32,000 nt of DNA from Opitutales bacterium (lineage in GTDB: Bacteria; Verrucomicrobiota; Verrucomicrobiia; Opitutales; UBA9783), in assembly GCA_046881885.1 (NCBI GenBank), contig JBKSMP010000022.1:1-32000 (forward strand). The letters run 5' to 3'. Every line of letters starts with the position of its first letter. Position 1 is the first letter of the stretch. The notes under the pieces are model-generated. The model saw nothing but the letters and a program-made list of their open reading frames with translations. It searched no databases and had not been told where the DNA came from. Of the stretch, positions 1 through 30,498 are shown one piece after another. The position numbers were made by a program, and so were the translations under genes.

Positions 1-2592
1 AACAAACTTCGACACCAGGCCGGCGGATACGGCAGAAGCGACAAGGTTTTTTAGATAATTGCTATTAGAAATTTCCTTAAAGACTTTGCCTAAATCGCCA
101 GCATTGGCTAAGGTGGAAACGGAAAGGGTATTGGTGATCCCTTCCAATGCAGCTCCGGCACCTTTTGCAATTGCGGTGGACGTACTTGCCCAGTGCGTTG
201 CGACATATTCCGCACCCCAGCCAGCCGTACAAATCGCCAACCCTACCATTAGGAAGGTTCTTAAGGGAGTGCTCATGGTGGTCGTATGCTCCCGCCATTG
301 CTCATGTTGCTCCAAAACTTCCCGTAAATCTACCTCGTATACGTGGCATAAATCCACCACCCATGGGGCCAATTGGCCTTTTTTCACTTCCGCCATCAGC
401 CGGCCGACCACGCGAACATCATCGTATACCAGGATCGGCTCGATAACCTCTAGGTGATTGTAGCCTTCGTCATGGTTCGTTGTCGTAATCCAGCCACTAG
501 TACGATACTGCTCTTGCCGCATCGATCGCTCGCGGCCTGCTCCGAGTTTGACTTGACCACGTGTGCTTTCCAAATGCATTGTTCGGGTTCGAGCCTCCAT
601 GGCTACGGTTTCCAGGTCATCGTGGGCCTTTAAGGTCAGCTTTCGTCCAGCTTGTATTTTTGGCCGCTCGACCTTTTCCTTCATTTCCGTTTTTTGACCA
701 TCACTCGATCCCCAAAAATCGCTGCTATACCAGGTATAATGCGCATAGTCCATCTCAATAAACGGATGGATTTGCATAAGACCATGGGAGGATTTTACCG
801 AAACCTCCTCAATGCCATAAATTGTTGGAGCCACTAAAGTAAGCTTATTGCGGCTTTGCAGCTCAATGTTGCGCCCTGTTAATGCTGGATAAATACCGCT
901 ACGATGATGAATAAGGTGCGAACTATCAGCTTCATGCGCCTCGTCATGGTATTCCAAAACGGCCGGCATAACTTGCAGTACGTCTCCTGAGCTTAAGGTA
1001 ATATCCCCATCCGCAGCGATTTGACTACCCGTAACAACAAGCTGTTCCTTCGCATCCAAGCGAATGTCTCCACCGCTACGAATTTCCGCTTCGCCCCCTG
1101 TTATCGAATGAAATTGCTGATTACTGCCTTCACGACCGACTTGCGTCTCGCTCATAATCAGCGGTGCTTGCATGGCTACCCCTGTAGCCCCTTGGATCAA
1201 ACCATTCGTATTGGCAATACCTACTCCTGAACTTAAATTAACCGCTCCCGTGCGACTCAAAATACCACCGCCCTGATTGAGCAGCATCCCACCTGGAACT
1301 TGGATGTTTACATCTCCTCGCGTGGCTTCCATAAGCCCTTGATTCGCCCAATTGCTATCCGCTGTGAGATTGAAACTGCCTGCAATCACCATCGCAGGAT
1401 TGACATATAAAGACTTCATCGTCTCTTGGCACAAATACAGACGAATCGCATAGGTTTTTTGACCATCACAATTAAATTCTACCATCCAAACAATGTCTTT
1501 TTTCAGCTTACATTGCTCGCCCCAATTTAAATGCCGGCCGATATCCAACACAACACCGTCTTCCACACGTAGCCGATGATGTTCTTCAACCGTATTTAAG
1601 AAAAACTGCCATAATTGATCCGATTCATCCGTAAATTGCGGTAATAAGCGTCGTCCTGCCAAACGATGCATTTCACTGCGAATAATGAGAATCTCTTCAT
1701 CTGGGCTAAATAACGGCAAATCTTGCCCTTCTTGCTTGTATTTTTGGACCAACTCTCGGCAAACATTTCGTTGCTTAATGAGTTCTTTTTTTGCTTTTAA
1801 TTCCGCAAGCTGACAACGCCCGTTAACAATCAATTGTCCCTTAGTTGATGCTACTCCTGGTATAGTGCTGCAATCCCGTTCGCCATTCGTAAAAACCGCT
1901 CTCGGAGCTAAACAATCGTTATCACAAATAACCGTTCCGTAGTTTCTAACACTTGTAAGCTCAGGTAACTGTATTGTCCCAACTTGCATCCGACTTCTGT
2001 GATAGGTTAATAGTTCCGGCAAGGTTCCCATGAAACTTCCAGAAACCCTTAACGTGCTATCCTTGTCTAACGAGAAAATAGGAAAATTGACCGTAAGATC
2101 TCCGTTAATAACCACCTCTCCACGTGCCGACAACGAAACAATAGCTTTGGCAGGTTTTGTCTTATTACTGGCAACAATGTTACCATTCAAAATAAGGCCT
2201 GCATCATGTCCTAAAATAACTCTATTGGCATGTATAGTTAAATTATCGTCACTTTGTCCACTTATTACAACTCCATCCAGACGCCAATCATCACGCATCC
2301 AGACTTGCAAATTCCCAAGTCGTATCCCTAAACCACCTGCTACGCTTCTGTCCAAAGGTGCCCAAGGCGCTTCCTTCCCTTGAAAATATAACGAGGTCTG
2401 CTTTAATTTATCTGTTTTCTTAAAAAAGGTATATCGGACATTACCAACTTCTACTCCAACAGGATTAAAACGCTTGATTTGCAAAACATACTGATTGCTT
2501 GTCTTATTTAAATCAATATCATACGTATCTGCTAAAAGCTTACTGCTCGCAAAACTTGCTAATACTGCTATTAACCAGAAAACCTTCTTCAT
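1..2592 (-). CDS. Large secreted beta-helical exoprotein, filamentous-haemagglutinin/CdiA-like. N-terminal 864 codons only; the ORF continues past the left edge.
   Basis: Absent from the ORF track because it has no stop in the window. I translated the minus strand by hand from the ATG (complement of 2590-2592) to position 1 and found no stop in 864 codons. The N-terminus MKKVFWLIAVLASFASSKLLA/DTY looks like a Sec signal peptide. The body has FHA-repeat texture (SGGDIRLDAKEQLVVTGSQIAADGDITLSSGDVL; GRNIELQSRNKLTLVAP; AGRKLTLKAHDDLETVA). The last in-window residues (STLANAGDLGKVFKEISNSNYLKNLVASAVSAGL) resemble the DUF637 (PF04830) motif of FhaB/CdiA proteins, recalled from memory and not searched. 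Confidence 0.7.
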   Translation of the reverse strand, partial: MKKVFWLIAVLASFASSKLLADTYDIDLNKTSNQYVLQIKRFNPVGVEVGNVRYTFFKKTDKLKQTSLYFQGKEAPWAPLDRSVAGGLGIRLGNLQVWMRDDWRLDGVVISGQSDDNLTIHANRVILGHDAGLILNGNIVASNKTKPAKAIVSLSARGEVVINGDLTVNFPIFSLDKDSTLRVSGSFMGTLPELLTYHRSRMQVGTIQLPELTSVRNYGTVICDNDCLAPRAVFTNGERDCSTIPGVASTKGQLIVNGRCQLAELKAKKELIKQRNVCRELVQKYKQEGQDLPLFSPDEEILIIRSEMHRLAGRRLLPQFTDESDQLWQFFLNTVEEHHRLRVEDGVVLDIGRHLNWGEQCKLKKDIVWMVEFNCDGQKTYAIRLYLCQETMKSLYVNPAMVIAGSFNLTADSNWANQGLMEATRGDVNIQVPGGMLLNQGGGILSRTGAVNLSSGVGIANTNGLIQGATGVAMQAPLIMSETQVGREGSNQQFHSITGGEAEIRSGGDIRLDAKEQLVVTGSQIAADGDITLSSGDVLQVMPAVLEYHDEAHEADSSHLIHHRSGIYPALTGRNIELQSRNKLTLVAPTIYGIEEVSVKSSHGLMQIHPFIEMDYAHYTWYSSDFWGSSDGQKTEMKEKVERPKIQAGRKLTLKAHDDLETVAMEARTRTMHLESTRGQVKLGAGRERSMRQEQYRTSGWITTTNHDEGYNHLEVIEPILVYDDVRVVGRLMAEVKKGQLAPWVVDLCHVYEVDLREVLEQHEQWREHTTTMSTPLRTFLMVGLAICTAGWGAEYVATHWASTSTAIAKGAGAALEGITNTLSVSTLANAGDLGKVFKEISNSNYLKNLVASAVSAGLVSKFV

Positions 2593-2682
2593 GTCCTTTA
2601 TTCCTTTCAATACAATTTTTATTTCTTTGTAAATGTTTTTCTCTTCTTTTTAGCGGAGGTATCCTCTCCGCTAATACTTTTA

Positions 2683-4230
2683 TTATTGTTCTGGTGTTAA
2701 CGACCGTGAAGGTGCTCCGGATGGCGCTGCCGATCGTGCTTGTCGCAATTCTTGTTGCCGTACCATCGTCTGAAATACAGGATTTACTTTCATAGCCTGC
2801 AAATTCTCTTCATATTCCGCTTCATCTACTAACAACATTAACGGTATTCCTCTTTCATCTGCTAATCTTTCAAGCGCATTTTTATGCTGCTCATACTTCG
2901 CTTCTGTCGCTTTTATCACTACGGCCTGTGTCGTGTCCGCTTTGCCATTAATGAATGTTTCGATCTTTCCGGTACTCGTTCCTAATAACTCTAAGGTTGA
3001 AGGAATTTTTTCGTGAATAGATGTTTGGGTATTCGCATGAACAAAAGAATCCCAATATACAGTACGACCTCCTCCACCAAAAACATTGCCTTTAAAATAT
3101 GCAGACCTTGTATTTAAAACATATGACATAATTTGCTGATGGGTTGCATAAGCTTTTATGTTTATTGTACTTTGTACTCTCAAAGCATTACCGATAAAAA
3201 GATGACTGCAAATAACTTGAGAGCTTTGATTTAATCCCAAGGATCCCAAAACACAAAAATTGGATGGCCTCCCTTGTCTTTGTGTGAAACTTTGGATGTT
3301 TGTGATTACCCTTTTACAGTTTAAACAACGATCTCGAAAACCCCACTCATAGCCGCTTGGATTACGAGTACCTTTAGGATCAAATTGTAATTCTCCATTC
3401 CAATTTAATAAAAAACTTCTATTGTCCGTTACAAGGTTTCCTGAAGTATCTTGTAGCACCCTTTTGCTTTCTTTAAAAGCTCCAATTTGGGGTTCAAACT
3501 CACTCTTATTATTTAAGGCTTTTAACGTACAATTACCTCCGACTTGGACCTGACCGCCTGCTATATTATTAAAGGTACAGGGCTCGCCTTTCCAATCCAA
3601 AACACAAGCGATATTTCCTCGATTGTTAACTTCCGTTGCTGGTGATACAAGATCTGCACGTTGCATTGCAAAATTCCCATTTACCTCATTGGTGAATTTC
3701 TGCAAAGCCATCACTTGCCATCCTTGTCCAACAACAATCGTTCCTTTGTTCTGAATAGCTGTTAGCAAACAGGTCCAATCTTGACCAATCCTTAATTCCC
3801 CTTCATTTTCAAACAAAATGCTCTTATTGAGAAACAAACTTTCTGTAACTTCTAAACGGCTACCTTTTGCAATCTTACAAGCCCCTTCATGTTCAAAGTA
3901 CAAGCTTCCATCCCAATTCCCAGCTAAATAAAAACCACCTGAAGTTAGGTTTAGATTCAATCCATCGATCGAAAATCGAACGCCTTTTTCTGGTTGCGTT
4001 ATATCGACTTGTGTCCGATAATCTCCTGGAATAGCTTCGGCCACTTGCCAATTCGCCCCAACTTTTTGAACTTTGATCGCTTCTGTATTTTCACTCCCAG
4101 CAAAATGAACCGTCAATGTCGTAACACTTCCAGAGGTTTTGCTTGTGATTTGTACCATTTCCGCATGCGTTAAGCATATAGAGCCGACTAAATTGCCAGC
4201 TAATACTATCGTTTTGTTTATCTTTATCAT
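2683..4230 (-). CDS. Secreted repeat-rich (beta-helix-like) protein of unknown function, 515 aa, probably co-transcribed with the downstream haemagglutinin-like gene
   Basis: Long ORF in the track. The N-terminus MIKINKTIVLAGNLVGSICLTHA/EM is signal-peptide-like. It is Gly/Asn-rich with alternating short beta-strand-like segments (GTIVVGQGWQV, GGQVQVGGNCTL). The C-terminal tail is acidic and possibly coiled (EAKYEQHKNALERLADERG...). I recognise no family motif. Confidence 0.6.
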   Translation of the reverse strand: MIKINKTIVLAGNLVGSICLTHAEMVQITSKTSGSVTTLTVHFAGSENTEAIKVQKVGANWQVAEAIPGDYRTQVDITQPEKGVRFSIDGLNLNLTSGGFYLAGNWDGSLYFEHEGACKIAKGSRLEVTESLFLNKSILFENEGELRIGQDWTCLLTAIQNKGTIVVGQGWQVMALQKFTNEVNGNFAMQRADLVSPATEVNNRGNIACVLDWKGEPCTFNNIAGGQVQVGGNCTLKALNNKSEFEPQIGAFKESKRVLQDTSGNLVTDNRSFLLNWNGELQFDPKGTRNPSGYEWGFRDRCLNCKRVITNIQSFTQRQGRPSNFCVLGSLGLNQSSQVICSHLFIGNALRVQSTINIKAYATHQQIMSYVLNTRSAYFKGNVFGGGGRTVYWDSFVHANTQTSIHEKIPSTLELLGTSTGKIETFINGKADTTQAVVIKATEAKYEQHKNALERLADERGIPLMLLVDEAEYEENLQAMKVNPVFQTMVRQQELRQARSAAPSGAPSRSLTPEQ

Positions 4231-4477
4231 CTTGGATAAAAAAAGTACTAACTAAGCCTAGGATTCTTCCCATGATCTGCTCAAAAATATTTATGAAAAT
4301 TTCAACAAATTCACTGCTCGCACCAAAAAAACACTCTCTAAGTCTTGGTACTAACTTTAGACAACCTACTGCCCCTCTTAAATGACCAAAATGACCACAA
4401 TCTTTTCTTAAAATAAAATCTCTAAATCTTGTAAAACTTAAAAACCAAAAGAAAATCCATAACAAGATGCTTTTCAT
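4091..4477 (-). CDS. Hypothetical 128-aa ORF with a hydrophobic N-terminus; may be spurious or a leader/frameshift remnant
   Basis: ORF in the track. It overlaps the start of the 515-aa gene by 140 nt in another frame. The N-terminus is MKSILLWIFFWFLSF. I recognise no motif. A minus-strand TTGACA -35 element lies about 60 nt upstream. Confidence 0.25.
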   Translation of the reverse strand: MKSILLWIFFWFLSFTRFRDFILRKDCGHFGHLRGAVGCLKLVPRLRECFFGASSEFVEIFINIFEQIMGRILGLVSTFFIQDDKDKQNDSISWQFSRLYMLNACGNGTNHKQNLWKCYDIDGSFCWE

Positions 4478-4999: not shown

Positions 5000-5076
<77 letters not shown>

Positions 5077-5175
5077 ATAAGCAATGATTTAATAAGAAGA
5101 GATTTTTTATCGCTTGTCAAGAAATTTATATATTTTTAGCTTTTCACTTTGAAAGATTTTTGGCTAAATAGCTTT

Positions 5176-17115: not shown

Positions 17116-19752
17116 TTAAGATCTGATAATATGTTGATTCTTTTCATTAGGCAAAAGCATTTGAATTGTAGCTTCATTGCCATCGGAGGAAATTTCTAAT
17201 TTCCCATGCCAAGTTTTAACAACCTCTTGAAGCTCTTGAAAGCCTATGCCAAATTGTAATTCATCGCTCAATCTTTGATTTTGGTTCAAGACTCTAAAAA
17301 GTTTTTTGGTGGAAAAGCTACCTAAATCATTTTTGAATAAGATTTGCTTGTTACCGAATTGATCTTGGCCAACAGATATAACAACTGTATTGCTGGCTTC
17401 CGGCAAAGCCTCCATACAAATGCCGATCAAATTATTCAGGGTTCTCCGTAACAATTGACCATCTACGCGAGCAAATACATTTTCTTTTGCTTGCATTTGA
17501 ATCGTTATGGTTTTGTACAAAATTTTATTTTTTTCAATACAACTGAGGATAGCTTGATTGATACTTTCTAGCGTTAGTTGGTCATAACCTTTTAGGCTTC
17601 CAGGGATAAAAGCGTCCAAACAGGCAGCCATTTCCTCAAGCGTACTGGTTACAAGTTTACATTCTTTTTCATCCAATTTATTGGGACTCTTATCAGCAAG
17701 CAGCAGGCGCAAAACCATTAACGGCGTAATGATGTCATGCGATAAACTACGCGCAATATTGTAACGCTCTAAATAAATAGCTAATTCTTTTTCTTTTTGT
17801 AGTGTATTTAGATTGGAACGTAGCAAAAATAGAACAGCAAGGTAACCTAATATATAGAACGTATGTTGCCAGCTAAAGGTTTCTGGCCAACAAAACGTAC
17901 AATTCGCTTTCGTGTAAATAACGGTTGTTATCAATGCGGTTACTAAACAGGCGAAAATGATTTTACCTTCATGTTGCTTTTCAACGCTCAACAACATGAC
18001 TACGAAAGACAATAATAAGGTTATTATATTTAGGCCATTTTCAGCGGACGTCAAAAAGAGATAGGCGGAGGTAACCGGCAAACAGAAGAATAATGTTGTT
18101 AATTTCAACCATTTTAAGCGATTCTGTTTTGCAAATATTTCTAAAGAATTTCCAAAAATAAGCAATATTGCCATAGTAGCATTGATGAGTATTAACAAAA
18201 GCTTTGAGTAGGTCAAACTTTTGGGCTCAAGTACTAAAGGCATGAGTTGCAAAAATACAAGACAAAAACCTAAGAATGCATTATTGTTTCCTTGTATTTC
18301 TTGAAGGCTTGGACGTTTTTTAGTCCGCTTTTCTTCAACAAAACGCAAATGTTCCAATTCTTTTTTTGTAAAAATCTTTTGTCTTCCCGTACGAAAATAA
18401 GAGAATAAAAATAGTATTACATTGGTGAAAAAACCAGGAAACACACCGTCTATTTTAACGATAGGCTTTGCATAAGTATCCCATAATATAAAGGTAAGAA
18501 ATCCAATTATTGCATTAAAAAGGAAGTGTTTGAAGGGAATCTTCATGTTAAAAAGAAGGAAATATAATGGTGCCAATATCGTAGGGAACCAAAATCCTTC
18601 CACCAAAACCGCTAAATCAAATAAGCCAATGCGTAAACTTGCAAAAATGATGGCTCCGGAGCCTATGAATAAAGCAAATCGACGAGCCCACTTAAGTTTT
18701 TCTGCATCTGAAAATTCTCTATTCTTACGTTTATTGTAGGGTATCATAACATCGTTGACTAACATGATACTTCCAATATTTAAGTAGGAATCTGCTGTAG
18801 ACATTAAAACTGCCAAAATACCAATAACTGCTATGCCAAAAACACCTGCAGGTAAGTAACCTGTAATCAATGTGAGTAATGCTTCATCACCATGTTCTAA
18901 CACAGGCAACAAAACTCTTGCAGCCAAACCCAAAAATATTGCTACAACTGCTAAGAATAGGCAGATGAATGTCGTGTTTCGATAAGCTTTTACTGCTTGG
19001 TTACCATTTCGCATCATAAGTAAGCGTTGGATATGATGAGGTGCAAGTGTTGGCAGTATAAACAAGGTTAAGAATAAATATCGAGGAAGATGCTCATTTG
19101 CAAATGTCATATGAGATTTTGGCAAACGCTCCATTAAGGTGTTCAAGCCGCCAATATCTCCAACAACTGAAATTAAAAGAATAGGGAAGGCAACAATTAA
19201 AACGATTAATTGTAAAACATCCGTAAACGTTACTGCGCGTATTCCTCCACGTCCCGTATAAATAAGGATGATGCCGGCAGAAATTAATAAACTTTTTATG
19301 TATGAAAGTCCGGTTAATACACTGATAGCTGTTCCCATTGCAGTAAACTGTAAGCTTACTAAAAGTATTTCATAAAAACTACCTGCAATTCCTGCCAAAA
19401 CTTTTCCAGATGTTCCATAAGATTTGTAAAAAACGTCACCGATAGAATGACAACCGTAATAATTGCTAAAACGACGGGCAAAAAATAGTCCCACCACTAA
19501 ATAGGCTAGTACCCCTCCGATTTTTCCTACAAATTGTATGATGCCTACTTCATATGCTTTTCCGACTGCACCCATGGTTGAGCTACCACCAATAACGGTC
19601 GCTGCTACGGTACAGCAAATGGCAAAATCGGAAAACTTACGATTGCCAATTGTGTAATTGTCGAAGGTTTTAATTTTTTTTCCAGATACTAATCCTATAT
19701 ATAAAACCGCAACTAAAAACACAATAATGATTGAAACATCTAAAATATGCAT
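17116..19752 (-). CDS. Sodium:solute symporter (SSS/SLC5-like) domain fused to a second multi-TM block and a histidine-kinase-like C-terminus (paralogue 1, 878 aa)
   Basis: SSS-type motifs are present (IYTGRGGIRAVTFTDVLQ, LAVLMSTADS). A charged linker and about six more hydrophobic helices follow. The H-box is ERYNIARSLSHDIITPL, with the His codon at the complement of 17737-17739. The C-terminal ~140 aa are HATPase_c-like with weak N/G1/G2 boxes. Confidence 0.8.
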   Translation of the reverse strand: MHILDVSIIIVFLVAVLYIGLVSGKKIKTFDNYTIGNRKFSDFAICCTVAATVIGGSSTMGAVGKAYEVGIIQFVGKIGGVLAYLVVGLFFARRFSNYYGCHSIGDVFYKSYGTSGKVLAGIAGSFYEILLVSLQFTAMGTAISVLTGLSYIKSLLISAGIILIYTGRGGIRAVTFTDVLQLIVLIVAFPILLISVVGDIGGLNTLMERLPKSHMTFANEHLPRYLFLTLFILPTLAPHHIQRLLMMRNGNQAVKAYRNTTFICLFLAVVAIFLGLAARVLLPVLEHGDEALLTLITGYLPAGVFGIAVIGILAVLMSTADSYLNIGSIMLVNDVMIPYNKRKNREFSDAEKLKWARRFALFIGSGAIIFASLRIGLFDLAVLVEGFWFPTILAPLYFLLFNMKIPFKHFLFNAIIGFLTFILWDTYAKPIVKIDGVFPGFFTNVILFLFSYFRTGRQKIFTKKELEHLRFVEEKRTKKRPSLQEIQGNNNAFLGFCLVFLQLMPLVLEPKSLTYSKLLLILINATMAILLIFGNSLEIFAKQNRLKWLKLTTLFFCLPVTSAYLFLTSAENGLNIITLLLSFVVMLLSVEKQHEGKIIFACLVTALITTVIYTKANCTFCWPETFSWQHTFYILGYLAVLFLLRSNLNTLQKEKELAIYLERYNIARSLSHDIITPLMVLRLLLADKSPNKLDEKECKLVTSTLEEMAACLDAFIPGSLKGYDQLTLESINQAILSCIEKNKILYKTITIQMQAKENVFARVDGQLLRRTLNNLIGICMEALPEASNTVVISVGQDQFGNKQILFKNDLGSFSTKKLFRVLNQNQRLSDELQFGIGFQELQEVVKTWHGKLEISSDGNEATIQMLLPNEKNQHIIRS

Positions 19753-21873: not shown

Positions 21874-22464
21874 ATGAATAAAAAAGTATTATTAGGTGGC
21901 TTCAGCTTAGTTGCTGGTAGCTTGTTCGCAGCAGAAAATGCAGTTTCTTCCTTCAACCCATATGTTGCAGTTAAAGGTGGATACTCGATCTTGACCAAAA
22001 AAGATAGCATCAAGTACAAAAATGGTTTCAATGGTGCTGTTGAATTTGGTGTTTCTTATGACGCATGGCGCTTAGGTTTGGAAGTTTCTTATCGTCAAAA
22101 CAAGATCAAGAACTCCACAAATGCTGCTGTTCCTGTTGCTACATACAATAAAGTTAATGCTTTGGCAGGTATGATCAACGTTTACTATGACTATGCTTTG
22201 ACCGAAGAATGCTCCTTGTATGTTGGTGCCGGTTTGGGTATGGCCAAATTCAACTTTGTTGCAGTAAACACCAAAATTGAAACTGGAAAGTGCGTTTTCG
22301 CATGGCAAGTATTGGCTGGTGTTGCTTATGACATCAACGAAAACTGGACTGTTGAAGCAGGTTATCGTTTGTTCGGAACCAGCAAAGTTAAGGTTAGCAA
22401 CACTGCTAAAATCAAGACTCCTTTGCAAAACAGCTTAGAGCTTGGTTTGCGTTACAACTTCTAA
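21874..22464 (+). CDS. Small outer-membrane beta-barrel protein (OMP_b-brl/Omp25-like)
   Basis: The signal peptide is MNKKVLLGGFSLVAGSLFA/AE. The body shows an alternating aromatic/aliphatic beta-strand pattern, and the C-terminus is LELGLRYNF, ending in Phe. A strong terminator follows the gene. Confidence 0.8.
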   Translation: MNKKVLLGGFSLVAGSLFAAENAVSSFNPYVAVKGGYSILTKKDSIKYKNGFNGAVEFGVSYDAWRLGLEVSYRQNKIKNSTNAAVPVATYNKVNALAGMINVYYDYALTEECSLYVGAGLGMAKFNFVAVNTKIETGKCVFAWQVLAGVAYDINENWTVEAGYRLFGTSKVKVSNTAKIKTPLQNSLELGLRYNF

Positions 22465-27864: not shown

Positions 27865-30498
27865 ATGCATGTCATCGATATTTCAATTATTATAAGTTTC
27901 CTTATAGCAACATTATATGTAGGTTTAAAATCTGGTAAAAATATAAAAACATTTAGCGATTATGCTATCGGTAATAGAAATTTTTCTGATTTTGCTATTT
28001 TTTGTACAGTAGCAGCTACTATTATCGGAGGAACGGTAACAATAGGAAATGTTGGGAAATTTTATGATGTTGGAATTAGTCAAATATTAGTACAAATTGG
28101 AGAACCTATTGCTTATATTTTGGTTGGCTTATTTTTGGCACGTCGTTTTGGAAATTATTATGGTTGTTGTTCTTTAGGCGATATGTTCCATAGATCCTAT
28201 GGAATGCCAGGGAAAATTTTAATAGGCATCATAGGAAGCCTGTACGAAATACTTGGTGTGGGATTACAATTTATAGCGATGGGGACAGGTATCAGCGTTT
28301 TAACAGGCCTTTCTTATATAAATAGCCTTTTAATTGCAGGTGGTATTATTCTCATTTATACGGGTCGTGGGGGCATACGTTCTGTAACATTTACAGATGT
28401 TTTGCAGTTTATAGTACTTATTGTAGCTATTCCTATTCTTTTGATAACAGTAATTACAAAAATTGGGGGCATACAAGTATTAATGGAGCAATTACCGCGA
28501 TCGCATGTAACCATTACAGGTGAAAATTTTCGACGATATATATTTTTAATGTTTCCTATGATGTTAATAACATTTTCACCGCATCATGTCCAACGTTTGT
28601 TAATGACTAAAAACTATGAGCAAGGAGCAAAGGCTTTTTTTAATTTAAGTTGGGTTTTTTCATTTGTAGTTATTATGGCCTTGTTTTTAGGTTTTTCAGC
28701 AAAAATTTTATTTCCCGGATTAACACGTCCTGATCAAGCTTTGCTTGTCTTAATGACAAATTATTTACCTGCAGGAATTTTTGGAATAGCTATGATTGGT
28801 ATTTTAGCTGTTTTAATGTCTACGGCAGACTCAAATATAAATAGTGGAAGTATTGTATTGGTTAACGATTTAATTATTCCTTATAAAAAATACATACAAA
28901 AAAAAGAATTATCAGAAGCTGAAAAATTAAAATATGCTCGTATTATTTCAGTATTTATAGGTTTTGCGGCTTTTATTTTTGCAAGTCAATGCACAAGTAT
29001 ATTTGAAACGAGAATTTTTATTCGTACCATATGGTTTTCTATTATTTTATCCCCGTTATATTTCCTTCTTTTTAATGTAAAAATTTCTGTTAAAGGACTT
29101 ATGTTAAGTGCTTTAATCGGCTTGTTTACATTTTCTTTTTGGAATGCAAATCTCAAACCAATTACACAAATTGATGGCCTATTCCCGGGATTTTTCGCAA
29201 ACATCATAACGGTACTTTTCTTTTATTTTTGGGGAGGTCGGCAGAAGGTATTTTCGAAGGAGGAATTAGCAAAGATGCGTCAAGCAGAGGCGTTGCAAAT
29301 CAAGAAGAAGCCGAGTGTACGTGATTTACAAATGCGCAATCATGTATTTTTAGGTTTATGTCTTGTATTTCTTCAATTGGTACCCTTGGTTTTTGAATTA
29401 AATGCATTAACTTATTCAAAGTTAATGTTAACACTTATAAACGGAATTTTAGCCATATTACTTATTTTTGGAGGATCCTTGGAGATTTTTGCAGCATCTA
29501 AGCACTTTCAATGGCTAAAGTTGACGATCTTATTCTTTTGCTTACCAGTTACGTCAGCTTATTTAGTGATAACATCTGCCGAAAATGGCCTGCATGTGTT
29601 AACTTTGTTGTTATCATTTGTTATAATGATTTTAAGCGTTAAGAAGAGGCAAGAAAGTAAAATTGCTTGGGTATGCGCGCTAACTGGTTTTATCACGGTT
29701 ATTACTTATTTTAAAATGGGATGCGAAATTTATTGGCCACATAGTTTTTCTATTCATCATTTGCTTTATTTGTTCGGATTTGTAGCTGTTTTATTGTTGC
29801 TAAGATCTAACATGAATATGTTGCGTATGGCTATTTATCAAGAACGTTACAACATGGCACGGAGCTTATCGCATGATTTGATGTCACCTTTGATGGCATT
29901 TCACATGCTTGTTGGGAACAAAAAGAAGATAGAATTGGATGAAAAAGAAAGTCAGCTCCTCAAAAATATTGCCAATGAAATGGGCAGTTACATTGATGAT
30001 TTTATTGTCGGCAGCTTAAAAGATCAGTCACAATTAAAGCTCGAAGACCTGAATCAATGTGTCCTCAGCTGCATCGAAAAACAAACGATTTTGAATAAAA
30101 ATCTAGAAATTCAATTGCAAGCGAAGGAGACAATTTTTGCACGCGTAGATGCGGTTCTTTTGCGCCGAATCATCAATAATCTCGTCAACGTTTGCCGGCA
30201 TGCATTACCGAACGGTTGCAACACGATCGTAATTGCCATCGACAACGATCCGCTCGGCAATACCCAAATCCTCTTGCAAGCTGCCAATGGTGATTTTTCC
30301 GCAAAAGCTCTTAAGGGGATGTTTATCGAGGATCAAAAATTAGGCGACGAAGTTGAACTCGGCATCAGCTTCCCTGAATTCCAAGATATTGTCGCTAAAT
30401 GGAACGGCAAGTTGGAACTTATTTCTCAAGATAATAACGCTATTATCCAAATCCTTCTCCCTAATAAGGATAACGATAAGCTGATCCAAAAAGCGTAA
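27865..30498 (+). CDS. Sodium:solute symporter domain fused to a second multi-TM block and a histidine-kinase-like C-terminus (paralogue 2, 877 aa)
   Basis: Colinear with the 17116..19752 protein; 42 of the first 60 residues are identical by hand count. SSS motifs are present (IYTGRGGIRSVTFTDVLQ, LAVLMSTADS). The H-box is ERYNMARSLSHDLMSPL, with the His codon at 29872-29874. The C-terminal domain is a degenerate HATPase_c-like domain. Confidence 0.8.
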   Translation: MHVIDISIIISFLIATLYVGLKSGKNIKTFSDYAIGNRNFSDFAIFCTVAATIIGGTVTIGNVGKFYDVGISQILVQIGEPIAYILVGLFLARRFGNYYGCCSLGDMFHRSYGMPGKILIGIIGSLYEILGVGLQFIAMGTGISVLTGLSYINSLLIAGGIILIYTGRGGIRSVTFTDVLQFIVLIVAIPILLITVITKIGGIQVLMEQLPRSHVTITGENFRRYIFLMFPMMLITFSPHHVQRLLMTKNYEQGAKAFFNLSWVFSFVVIMALFLGFSAKILFPGLTRPDQALLVLMTNYLPAGIFGIAMIGILAVLMSTADSNINSGSIVLVNDLIIPYKKYIQKKELSEAEKLKYARIISVFIGFAAFIFASQCTSIFETRIFIRTIWFSIILSPLYFLLFNVKISVKGLMLSALIGLFTFSFWNANLKPITQIDGLFPGFFANIITVLFFYFWGGRQKVFSKEELAKMRQAEALQIKKKPSVRDLQMRNHVFLGLCLVFLQLVPLVFELNALTYSKLMLTLINGILAILLIFGGSLEIFAASKHFQWLKLTILFFCLPVTSAYLVITSAENGLHVLTLLLSFVIMILSVKKRQESKIAWVCALTGFITVITYFKMGCEIYWPHSFSIHHLLYLFGFVAVLLLLRSNMNMLRMAIYQERYNMARSLSHDLMSPLMAFHMLVGNKKKIELDEKESQLLKNIANEMGSYIDDFIVGSLKDQSQLKLEDLNQCVLSCIEKQTILNKNLEIQLQAKETIFARVDAVLLRRIINNLVNVCRHALPNGCNTIVIAIDNDPLGNTQILLQAANGDFSAKALKGMFIEDQKLGDEVELGISFPEFQDIVAKWNGKLELISQDNNAIIQILLPNKDNDKLIQKA

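What the first reader, a model, noticed from the sequence alone, without database searches (positions are those of the whole stretch)
1..2592. Haemagglutinin/CdiA-like exoprotein with a plain Sec signal and no TPS domain, hidden from the ORF track
The largest accessory gene in the window is invisible in the supplied track because it runs off the edge. Hand translation gives 864 stop-free codons. They begin with a short classical signal peptide and end, at the window edge, in a stretch that matches my memory of the DUF637 motif in FhaB/CdiA proteins. In canonical two-partner-secretion exoproteins that motif lies thousands of residues from the N-terminus. It is preceded there by an extended signal peptide and a TPS domain with NPNL/NPNGI motifs. 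Here it appears by residue ~830, and I see no NPN motif in the first 250 residues. No TpsB/FhaC-type transporter gene is present in the window. This may be a compact, differently secreted relative of contact-dependent-inhibition toxins. If so, the variable toxin tip and immunity gene would lie just beyond the left edge.
Basis: partly seen in the sequence, partly recalled or inferred. Interest (0 to 1): 0.7.

Follow-up and report, generated by a model that had tools for sequence, protein, structure and literature searches.

The report
TPS-less mini-CdiA toxin with partner
A gut Opitutales bacterium carries a cut-down relative of contact-dependent-inhibition toxins. It keeps only the toxin-delivery half of CdiA, replaces the usual secretion domain with a lineage-specific one, and always sits beside a hypervariable partner gene instead of the usual outer-membrane transporter gene.

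Summary
Window 1-2592 (minus strand) is an 864-codon open frame that runs off the contig end. It has a Sec-type signal peptide, a Fil_haemagg_2 hit above cut-off and the start of DUF637 at aa 814-863.

Full-length orthologs (1271-1369 aa; P0170 is 97% identical) continue through DUF637/pretoxin to a VENN-type motif (TENN/IENN). A 215-260 aa variable toxin tip follows, then a small overlapping immunity candidate and orphan pretoxin cassettes.

No TPS domain could be detected:
- Pfam gave no hit.
- An exhaustive HMMER search found no relatives for aa 1-295.
- hhalign against a TPS profile gave 0.9% (positive control 100%).
- There are no NPNL/NPNGI motifs.

From aa ~300 the protein is collinear with the C-terminal half of canonical CdiA, from the YP/FHA-2 junction to VENN.

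No TpsB gene lies in the window or in the recovered flanks of the other loci. Instead, a ~500-aa secreted beta-solenoid partner always precedes the gene. Its central ~170 aa are hypervariable between otherwise 90-100%-identical alleles.

The window ends exactly at the constant/variable junction ("GLVSKFV").

Verdict: a real polymorphic toxin and a new architectural variant of the CdiA lineage, found only in Opitutales MAGs or unassigned gut/metagenome contigs. The export route and the partner's role are unresolved.

The parts
1..2592 (-). Main gene, 5' two-thirds (codons 1-864 of about 1271): a TPS-less CdiA-like polymorphic toxin, cut by the contig end
   Evidence: 864 stop-free codons. 96.9% identical to the full-length ortholog P0170. 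Fil_haemagg_2 and DUF637 hits.
2530..2592 (-). Sec-type signal peptide (aa 1-21, predicted cleavage LLA|D)
   Evidence: n/h/c-region pattern read from the sequence. The [LF][LF]AD motif is conserved in all 5 homologs. No signal-peptide predictor was available.
1798..2529 (-). Lineage-specific N-terminal all-beta (solenoid-like) domain, aa 22-265; not a detectable TPS domain
   Evidence: AF2 pLDDT 80-90, all-beta. No relatives outside the family among 1.84 billion representatives. hhalign against a TPS profile gave 0.9%, positive control 100%; no NPNL/NPNGI motifs.
1393..1707 (-). Segment homologous to the YP/FHA-2 junction of canonical CdiA/TpsA proteins (aa 296-400; LIIR...GRRLLP...DIVWMVE...YL)
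   Evidence: About 155 of the hits match only this segment; 150 are listed, mostly at positions ~1000-2300 of 2000-4000-aa proteins. The three large proteins scanned all carry TPS + Fil_haemagg_2. In E. coli GE3 CdiA the motif lies 1069 aa before VENN, right after the Tyr/Pro-rich stretch.
763..1392 (-). FHA-2-type beta-helix repeats (aa 401-610; Pfam Fil_haemagg_2 stretch aa 488-545 = window 958-1131)
   Evidence: PF13332 25.9 bits, above the cut-off of 22. Beta-strand ladder in the AF2 model. Collinear with the P0059 FHA-2 region.
277..762 (-). Distal FHA-2 / pre-DUF637 region (aa 611-772), ending in W.EHTTT
   Evidence: Collinear BLASTP alignment with canonical P0059. Low AF2 confidence.
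1..276 (-). Start of the DUF637/pretoxin domain (aa 773-864): a hydrophobic helix MSTPLRTFLMVGLAICTAGWGA, then Pfam DUF637 aa 814-863. The window ends at GLVSKFV, the constant/variable junction.
   Evidence: PF04830 hit. Alleles P0170 and P0172 diverge from about aa 900, L008 loses homology after GLVSKFVD, and L007's contig ends at codon 895.
2650..2674 (-). Intercistronic stem-loop directly after the partner's stop codon, followed by an A-tract
   Evidence: 10-bp stem. A stem-loop at the same position, with a different sequence, is predicted in all 8 loci; it is weakest in L004.
2625..2633 (-). Conserved TTTACAAAG motif about 35-55 nt upstream of the main gene's start codon (possible -35 element / internal promoter)
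   Evidence: TTTACAAA is present in all 8 intergenic regions despite sequence divergence elsewhere; the ninth base is G in 6 of them, A in L002 and C in L005. Its function was not tested.
2683..4230 (-). Conserved partner gene (515 aa): signal peptide, beta-solenoid N-domain, hypervariable centre, helical C-terminus
   Evidence: Lies immediately upstream of the main gene in all eight distinct main-bearing loci. Only about 10 homologs among 5.8 billion proteins, none with a Pfam domain. AF2 pLDDT 67, with about 90 over aa 25-260. Not a beta-barrel; no significant fold match.
3001..3510 (-). Hypervariable cassette of the partner (aa ~241-410)
   Evidence: 10-53% identity between strains whose flanking parts (aa 41-240 and 429-515) are 90-100% identical. 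At least 3 allelic types. Seen as a DNA alignment gap.
5000..5076 (-). tRNA-Met(CAT) marking the upstream boundary of the conserved block
   Evidence: ARAGORN. An identical tRNA lies in L007. Window/L007 homology ends at window 5079, and the flanks beyond differ: ffh here, mraY there.

Best explanation
This is the promoter-proximal two-thirds of a polymorphic interbacterial toxin of the CdiA lineage, with a new, reduced architecture. The order is: Sec signal peptide; a lineage-specific ~240-aa beta-solenoid domain in the place normally held by TPS, FHA-1 and the receptor-binding domain; then the 'delivery half' of CdiA. That half runs from the YP/FHA-2 junction segment through a shortened FHA-2 beta-helix and the DUF637/pretoxin domain to a (V/I/T)ENN motif and a variable C-terminal toxin. 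A ~140-aa immunity candidate and orphan pretoxin cassettes follow. It is always paired with an upstream secreted ~500-aa beta-solenoid protein whose centre is hypervariable. Shown here: the domain order, the homology, the lack of detectable TPS sequence similarity, the polymorphic C-terminus, the conserved pairing and the mosaic variation. Inferred by analogy with CdiA: after Sec export, the protein reaches the cell surface or medium; FHA-2 engages a target cell's outer membrane; Asn cyclisation at the ENN motif releases the tip; in the P0170/P0004 allele type the tip is probably an HNH/EndoVII-like nuclease; the cognate small protein protects siblings. More speculative: the partner supplies surface display and/or receptor recognition, functions that TPS/FHA-1/RBD provide in cis in canonical CdiA. 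The route across the producer's outer membrane does not use a cis-encoded TpsB.
For: Homology and architecture: Fil_haemagg_2 and DUF637 hits. P0003 314-1109 is collinear with canonical P0059 55-892 (E 8e-35), with AIENN over AVENN, and P0059 has a PT-VENN hit there. aa ~300-420 match the mid-protein segment of TPS-bearing exoproteins, placed at the YP/FHA-2 junction in E. coli CdiA (EC93 domain map from PMC13625785). Polymorphic-toxin hallmarks: unrelated C-termini after the ENN motif. Orphan cassettes begin inside DUF637 (L002 11619-12704, L011 6832-7374). The same tip occurs behind a different pretoxin domain: P0183 has PT-TG at 32 bits and a tip 75% identical. Tip and immunity candidate co-vary: P0170 and P0004 tips are 35% identical, and their downstream ORFs 43%. 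No TPS. No TpsB in cis in the window or the recovered flanks of the other loci. Partner: adjacent in all 8 distinct main-bearing loci; hypervariable centre between 90-100%-identical flanks. The real N-terminus is supported by a conserved signal peptide and N-domain in independent samples.
Confidence: 0.7

Rival explanations
1. This is a canonical type Vb (two-partner) system after all. The N-terminal beta-solenoid would be an extremely diverged TPS domain recognised by a TpsB encoded elsewhere in the genome. The partner protein would be a second TpsA-like substrate of the same transporter.
For: The N-domain has the right size (~240 aa), position (directly after the signal peptide) and predicted all-beta solenoid character. 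The partner has a similar N-domain. There is a weak shared sub-region: hhalign 37.5%, E 3.5e-4, and BLASTP E 0.01. The weak Foldseek hits include the TpsA proteins HxuA and EtpA.
Against: hhalign against a TPS profile gave 0.9% and 0.3%, against 100% for the control. No NPNL/NPNGI motifs. No TPS hit in Pfam at E<=1. An exhaustive HMMER search returned no TPS-bearing protein aligned to aa 1-295. No ShlB/POTRA gene lies in the window or the recovered flanks of the other loci, whereas the two canonical comparison loci have it adjacent. The Foldseek hits are non-significant and generic (E 0.01-1, TM 0.1-0.2).
Confidence: 0.2
2. This is an assembly or annotation artefact: the ORF is an internal fragment of a broken canonical cdiA, and its apparent signal peptide is a chance start. 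P0018 turned out to be exactly this.
For: P0018 (1096 aa, with an apparent signal peptide and no TPS hit) proved to be an internal piece of the TPS-bearing P0166. Many hits are N-terminally truncated fragments.
Against: The same start, signal peptide and N-domain recur in 8 loci from different samples at 44-97% identity. The gene upstream is always the partner, never a TPS/FHA-1 coding region. The partner ends in TAATAA, and a conserved intergenic stem-loop, TTTACAAA motif and RBS follow. Complete 1271-1369-aa ORFs exist.
Confidence: 0.02
3. This is a secreted adhesin or haemagglutinin with no toxin function; the variable C-terminus would reflect antigenic variation, not a toxin/immunity system.
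For: Two of the three tip types have no recognisable toxin family. NCBI names the protein only 'hemagglutinin repeat-containing protein'.
Against: The ENN motif aligns with PT-VENN. There are orphan cassettes. Small downstream ORFs overlap the main gene's stop and co-vary with tip type. The tip is shared with a PT-TG toxin scaffold and gives sub-threshold Tox-SHH matches.
Confidence: 0.05
4. This is a soluble, bacteriocin-like two-component toxin released through T2SS or lysis rather than displayed for contact-dependent delivery. The partner would act as the receptor-binding or chaperone subunit in a complex.
For: The protein has only a plain Sec signal, the 'T2SS/Sec-dependent' default class in Zhang et al. 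2012, Table 1. It has no filament-forming FHA-1 region. The partner has a hypervariable centre.
Against: DUF637, PT-VENN and FilH repeats are catalogued only with the T5SS route. FHA-2 is thought to act by inserting into a target outer membrane from a cell-bound effector (PMC9086364, PMC13625785). No T2SS genes are linked to the locus.
Confidence: 0.2

Closest known systems
CdiA effectors of CdiB/CdiA/CdiI contact-dependent growth inhibition (type Vb; e.g. E. coli EC93 CdiA, Burkholderia BcpA)
   Same: The YP/FHA-2 junction segment, FHA-2-type repeats (PF13332), DUF637/pretoxin and a (V/I/T)ENN motif demarcate a variable C-terminal toxin. An immunity gene lies immediately downstream, followed by orphan toxin cassettes. 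TENN is a published pretoxin-motif variant in Pseudomonas CdiA (PMC9086364).
   Different: There is no TPS domain, no FHA-1 filament, no recognisable RBD and no Tyr/Pro-rich stretch. Length is 1271-1369 aa against ~2000-4000. DIVW-to-ENN is 688 aa against 1069. There is no cdiB/tpsB neighbour. A hypervariable partner gene sits upstream instead. Allelic divergence starts about 150-190 aa before the ENN motif, inside DUF637. The phylum is Verrucomicrobiota, which is not listed for T5SS toxins in Zhang et al. 2012.
Sec-only polymorphic toxins with lineage-specific N-terminal domains (e.g. Neisseria MafB with DUF1020/MafB-N; the 'T2SS/Sec-dependent' class of Zhang et al. 2012)
   Same: A plain signal peptide plus a lineage-specific N-terminal domain, a variable C-terminal toxin, immunity and orphan cassettes, and an unknown route across the outer membrane.
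   Different: MafB-type toxins lack FilH repeats, DUF637 and PT-VENN. Here the whole CdiA delivery half is retained. I compared this only through the literature, not by sequence.
Engineered CdiA C-terminal fragment (RBD-FHA-2-PT-CT) used for in vitro reconstitution (PMC13625785)
   Same: It contains FHA-2 + PT + CT and lacks TPS/FHA-1 and the YP region. It is reported to associate with membranes and self-cleave at VENN. This natural protein covers much the same part of CdiA.
   Different: The engineered fragment keeps the BamA-binding RBD in cis. The Opitutales protein has an unrelated N-domain and a separate partner. No biochemical data exist for it.

Membership tests
Two-partner-secretion exoprotein (TpsA, type Vb) | N-terminal TPS domain (PF05860) with NPNL/NPNGI motifs | tested here: not met
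   No PF05860 hit at E<=1. hhalign against a TPS profile gave 0.9%, control 100%; motifs absent in all 5 family members. No TPS-bearing protein aligned to aa 1-295 in the exhaustive search.
Two-partner-secretion exoprotein (TpsA, type Vb) | TPS fold (right-handed beta-helix with characteristic extra-helical elements) | tested here: inconclusive
Two-partner-secretion exoprotein (TpsA, type Vb) | Cognate TpsB/CdiB (ShlB/POTRA) transporter gene, normally adjacent | tested here: not met
   None in the 32-kb window or in the recovered flanks of the other loci: up to 10 kb in L007-L009, whole contigs of 5.6-16 kb in L001-L004 and L011. L005's flanks were not annotated. It is present next to the canonical comparators. 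A transporter in trans was not testable.
CdiA-lineage pretoxin module | FHA-2-type repeats (PF13332) | tested here: met
   25.9 bits against a cut-off of 22 in the window protein. P0004 scores 20 bits, and P0003 and P0170 have no hit, so membership rests mainly on the collinear alignment.
CdiA-lineage pretoxin module | DUF637 (PF04830) | tested here: met
   24.5 bits, truncated, in the window. 63.5, 56.1 and 42.4 bits in P0003, P0004 and P0170, against a cut-off of 26.6.
CdiA-lineage pretoxin module | VENN-type motif at the constant/toxin boundary | tested here: met
   In orthologs only: AIENN (P0003), VTENN (P0004, P0170), AIEYN (L004, L011 orphan). AIENN aligns with AVENN of P0059, which has a PT-VENN hit. 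PF04829 itself does not hit the Opitutales proteins. The motif lies beyond the window edge.
Polymorphic toxin system | Variable C-terminal tips on a conserved trunk, with orphan cassettes | tested here: met
   At least three distinct tip types after the ENN motif. P0170 and P0172 are ~97% identical to about aa 890 and then 8-40%. Orphans in L002 and L011.
Polymorphic toxin system | Cognate immunity gene immediately downstream | tested here: inconclusive
   ORFs of 139 and 141 aa overlap the main gene's stop and co-vary with tip type (43% identical to each other). They have no family hit, and binding or protection was not tested.
Polymorphic toxin system | Demonstrated toxic activity of the tip | not testable with these tools
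   Only sub-threshold Tox-SHH (HNH/EndoVII) similarity, 11.7-18.7 bits against 22.7. The P0003 and L002-orphan tips have no hit.

The most novel reading that the evidence does not exclude
This is a previously unrecognised two-component toxin-delivery system of PVC-group gut bacteria. The CdiA 'post-arrest' half (FHA-2, pretoxin, toxin) has been detached from the type Vb machinery. It is exported by a route that needs neither a TPS domain nor TpsB. It is targeted by a separate, diversifying partner protein that takes over the receptor-binding role. This would show that FHA-2 + PT is an autonomous, portable module for crossing a target cell's outer membrane.
Probability: 0.3. Interest if true: 0.8.

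Novelty: new variant of a known kind. Interest (0 to 1): 0.62.

Why it matters
CDI is defined as a type Vb system: CdiA is thought to need its TPS domain and CdiB to reach the surface, and its FHA-1 filament and RBD to find a target. Here a natural protein keeps only the part of CdiA believed to carry the toxin across the target's outer membrane, joined to an unrelated N-domain and a separate hypervariable partner.

If it is active, it would be a minimal natural test case for what FHA-2 and the pretoxin domain can do on their own. That complements recent in vitro work with engineered C-terminal fragments (PMC13625785). It would also point to a second export and targeting solution for this toxin lineage.

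It extends CdiA-type pretoxin modules to Verrucomicrobiota of human and animal guts, where mechanisms of strain competition are little known.

On the practical side, it explains why metagenome contigs end inside these genes: assembly breaks at the constant/variable junction.

Tried and rejected
1. Partner as a paralog of the main protein's N-terminus. Whole-profile hhalign gave 1.4%. With N-domains only it rose to 37.5% over 61 columns. I kept this as a weak hint, not a finding.

2. Partner as a hidden TpsB or Omp85 barrel. The AF2 model is a beta-solenoid plus helices, not a barrel. There were no Pfam, NCBIfam or PDB sequence hits. Rejected.

3. P0018 as a second TPS-less type in another lineage. 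It is an internal fragment of the TPS-bearing P0166. Rejected.

5. Toxin-tip identification. There were no Pfam hits for the P0003, P0004 or L002-orphan tips scanned alone. Only sub-threshold Tox-SHH matches appeared for the P0170 type.

6. The small ORF at 4091-4477(-) as a third component. Its translation looks non-protein-like and has no family. Its conservation probably reflects conserved upstream DNA. Not included.

7. Internal DNA repeats as the cause of the contig break. Only a 57-nt, 84%-identical repeat was found in L002 and none in L011. The better explanation is allelic heterogeneity from about aa 865-900.

8. Literature. The searches returned no description of TPS-less CdiA-like proteins or of CDI in Verrucomicrobia. 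Ruhe et al. 2018 was not held.
Full report
**Observation.** Window 1-2592 on the minus strand translates into 864 codons without a stop. It starts at ATG 2592 and runs off the left edge. The ORF lister omits it for that reason. With this window's stop-codon frequency (0.052), such a run has a chance probability of about 1e-20. The N-terminus MKKVFWLIAVLASFASSKLLA|DTY has the n/h/c layout of a Sec signal peptide; I read this by eye because no predictor was available. AAGGA lies 5 nt before the ATG. Pfam gives Fil_haemagg_2 at aa 488-545 (25.9 bits, cut-off 22). It gives DUF637 at aa 814-863 (24.5 bits, cut-off 26.6), truncated by the edge. There is no TPS hit at E<=1. The identical sequence is in NCBI as 'MAG: hemagglutinin repeat-containing protein, partial [Opitutales bacterium]' on a 68-kb contig. 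The rest of the window is housekeeping: ffh, pgpA, an ArnT-like gene, rnpA, yidC, yebC, an aspartase/fumarase-class lyase (Lyase_1), tsaE, ptsI, tig, clpX and two SSF transporters. It has no Omp85/ShlB gene.

**What lies beyond the edge.** The family is tiny: 5 clusters among 5.8 billion proteins, and two reference genomes, both Opitutales MAGs. Complete members are 1332-1369 aa (P0003 from pig gut, P0004 from Hadza gut). A member of the window protein's own 90% cluster, P0170, is 1271 aa and 96.9% identical over the 864 residues. All of them continue through a full DUF637 (42-63 bits) to a VENN-type motif: AIENN, VTENN, or AIEYN in L004 and an orphan. After the motif the sequences are unrelated between types.

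In L011, P0170's locus, a 139-aa ORF starts on the main gene's stop codon. A 180-aa ORF follows that begins inside DUF637 and ends at AIEYNSISLI, so it is an orphan pretoxin remnant. An SSF transporter gene comes next. L002 has a 141-aa ORF and then a 361-aa orphan. The orphan copies P0003's pretoxin region up to AIENNS and then carries a different tip.

The P0170 and P0004 tips are 35% identical, and their downstream ORFs are 43% identical, so they co-vary. The C-terminal ~105 aa of the P0170 tip recurs at 75% identity in P0183, behind a PT-TG pretoxin domain (32 bits, cut-off 23.5). It matches Tox-SHH (HNH/EndoVII) only below threshold. Together these are the hallmarks of a polymorphic toxin system.

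**Relation to CdiA.** An exhaustive HMMER search with a profile of aa 1-420 returned 160 proteins at E<=0.001, of which 150 are listed.
- Residues 1-~295 matched nothing outside the family. The only hits were the family members P0005, P0002 and P0016, plus one distant 443-aa fragment, P0017.
- Residues ~300-420 matched a segment that in most listed hits lies at positions ~1000-2300 of 2000-4000-aa proteins. The three large hits I scanned all carry TPS + Fil_haemagg_2. Hits with the segment near their N-terminus are mostly fragments.
- P0003 aa 314-1109 aligns collinearly with the canonical fragment P0059 aa 55-892 (E 8e-35). The alignment ends with AIENN over AVENN, where P0059 has a PT-VENN hit.
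- In an E. coli cdiB-cdiC-cdiA locus, the motif LIREQV...DIVWLV directly follows the Tyr/Pro-rich stretch PYLVETDPRF...SDY and lies 1069 aa before VENN.

The published EC93 map gives RBD 1358-1566 and YP 1567-1820, followed by FHA-2 (PMC13625785). On that map the segment falls at about the YP/FHA-2 junction. This placement is approximate and rests partly on my recollection that EC93's VENN is near residue 2905. In P0170 the distance from DIVWM (366) to TENN is 688 aa. So the Opitutales protein is a compacted version of the CdiA half that, in the current model, stays in the periplasm until receptor binding and then carries the toxin into the target (PMC9086364, PMC13625785).

**The TPS question.** Four sequence-level tests were negative.
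- Pfam gave no hit.
- The exhaustive search found nothing.
- hhalign of aa 1-295 against a TPS profile built from 11 canonical exoproteins gave 0.9%, matching only the signal peptide. The held-out positive control gave 100%.
- No NPNL or NPNGI motif occurs in any family member, whereas 8 of the 12 canonical proteins checked have NPNGI.

I also checked that this N-terminus is real, because one apparent look-alike, P0018, proved to be an internal fragment of a TPS-bearing protein. Here the same signal peptide and N-domain recur in 8 loci from different samples at 44-97% identity. The gene upstream is never a TPS or FHA-1 region.

**The partner.** Window 2683-4230(-) encodes a 515-aa protein with its own signal peptide. 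A homolog lies immediately upstream of the main gene in all eight distinct main-bearing loci: window, L001, L002, L003, L004, L005, L007 and L008 (L006 is the same contig as L002). The same is true in L011. It has about 10 homologs in the whole database and no Pfam, NCBIfam or PDB sequence match. AF2 (11 sequences, pLDDT 67) gives a confident beta-solenoid at aa 25-260, a second beta region at 305-372 and C-terminal helices. It is not a barrel, and fold searches were non-significant.

Its N-domain shows no TPS similarity (0.3%). It has only a weak similarity to the main protein's aa 201-274 (hhalign 37.5%, E 3.5e-4; BLASTP E 0.01).

The most informative feature is mosaic variation. Among the alleles compared (window, L011, L007 and P0011), aa 41-240 and 429-515 are 90-100% identical, but aa ~241-410 are 10-53% identical. 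Those central regions fall into at least three allelic types (visible as DNA alignment gaps). A diversifying cassette between conserved flanks is what receptor-binding regions show, for example the RBD classes of CdiA. I therefore propose, as an inference only, that the partner supplies display and/or target recognition.

**Why the gene runs off the edge.** The window ends at GLVSKFV (aa 858-864). Several lines converge on this point:
- L007's contig ends at codon 895.
- L005's contig also ends inside the gene.
- L008's degenerate copy loses homology right after GLVSKFVD.
- The near-identical alleles P0170 and P0172 diverge from about aa 900.

So the polymorphic region starts inside DUF637, about 150-190 aa before the ENN motif, and metagenome assemblies break there. 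L009 is a decayed locus in which the main gene's signal peptide is fused to a pretoxin fragment.

**Context.** GC rises along the main gene from ~42% in the N-domain to 50% in the FHA-2/pretoxin part. The partner is 37-39% and the rest of the window 33-41%. This fits a foreign origin for the CdiA-derived part, though a Gly/Ala-rich composition could contribute. An identical tRNA-Met lies ~800 bp upstream of the partner here and in L007. Homology between the two ends at the tRNA's far end, and the flanks differ: ffh here, mraY there. This suggests an island associated with a tRNA gene. In all 8 loci examined, the partner's stop codon is followed by a predicted stem-loop (sequences differ; it is weakest in L004), an A-tract and a conserved TTTACAAA(G) motif about 35-55 nt before the main ATG.

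**Comparison with what is known.** Zhang et al. 2012 (PMC3482391, Table 1) list FilH repeats and the DUF637, DUF637-N and PT-VENN pretoxin domains under the T5SS route, which is defined by the TpsA secretion domain and a neighbouring FhaB/CdiB gene. Verrucomicrobia are not among the phyla listed for that route. Sec-only toxins with lineage-specific N-domains, such as MafB, are known, but they lack these modules. My literature searches returned no description of a TPS-less CdiA-type protein or of CDI in Verrucomicrobia.

I therefore classify this as a new variant of a known kind. It works like a CdiA toxin in its delivery half. It fails the TpsA membership test on the TPS sequence and the adjacent transporter gene. 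It also adds a dedicated hypervariable partner.

**Confidence.**
- It is a genuine polymorphic toxin of the CdiA lineage with this architecture: about 0.85-0.9.
- Export is truly TpsB-independent: about 0.5.
- The partner is the targeting or display subunit: about 0.3-0.4.
- The combined statement under Best explanation: 0.7.

Noticed in passing
window 3001-3510 (-), partner aa ~241-410: A hypervariable cassette inside the partner gene. It is 10-53% identical between strains whose flanking parts are 90-100% identical, with at least three allelic types.
   Followed up: partly
window 2593-2685 (stem-loop 2650-2674; TTTACAAAG 2625-2633); same position in L001, L002, L004, L005, L007, L008, L011: The intergenic architecture between partner and main gene is conserved: a stem-loop right after the stop codon (sequence differs between loci, structure kept), an A-rich tract, then TTTACAAA(G) about 35-55 nt before the ATG. 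It may be a terminator or attenuator plus an internal promoter that sets partner:toxin stoichiometry.
   Followed up: partly
window 5000-5079; L007 9093-9172: An identical tRNA-Met(CAT) bounds the conserved block. Homology between the window and L007 stops at the tRNA's 5' end, and the genes beyond differ (ffh vs mraY). This suggests a tRNA-associated island sitting in two chromosomal contexts. No integrase was seen.
   Followed up: partly
window 1-2592: A GC gradient along the main gene: about 42% in the N-domain, rising to 50% in the FHA-2/pretoxin part. The partner is 37-39% and the rest of the window 33-41%. This is compatible with a foreign origin for the CdiA-derived portion.
   Followed up: no
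window 4091-4477 (-): A 128-codon ORF overlaps the partner's start. It is 91% identical to a called 91-aa gene in L007 and 36% to a 107-aa ORF in L009. The translation looks non-protein-like, so it is probably conserved upstream or leader DNA rather than a gene.
   Followed up: partly
L009 11592-11897; L008 11587-14381: Decayed copies of the locus. In L009 the main gene's signal peptide is fused to a pretoxin fragment (internal deletion of about 950 aa). In L008 the main gene is interrupted after about aa 122 and truncated right after GLVSKFVD. Two ankyrin-repeat genes lie downstream on the opposite strand; Imm-ank is an immunity type linked to Tox-AHH in Zhang et al. 2012.
   Followed up: partly
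window 17116-19752 (-) and 27865-30498 (+): Two ~877-aa paralogous proteins have an N-terminal sodium:solute symporter domain (aa ~33-410) and about 460 further residues with no Pfam family. An SSF gene also follows the toxin locus in L011.
   Followed up: no
window 21874-22464 (+): A small 196-aa OMP_b-brl/Opacity/OmpA-like outer-membrane barrel. It confirms a diderm envelope but is unrelated to TpsB.
   Followed up: no
L002 12670-13668: Downstream of the orphan cassette lie Cys-rich zinc-ribbon proteins (204/216 aa and 82 aa, with weak DUF6980/DUF7575 hits). These may be further immunity or orphan-associated genes.
   Followed up: no
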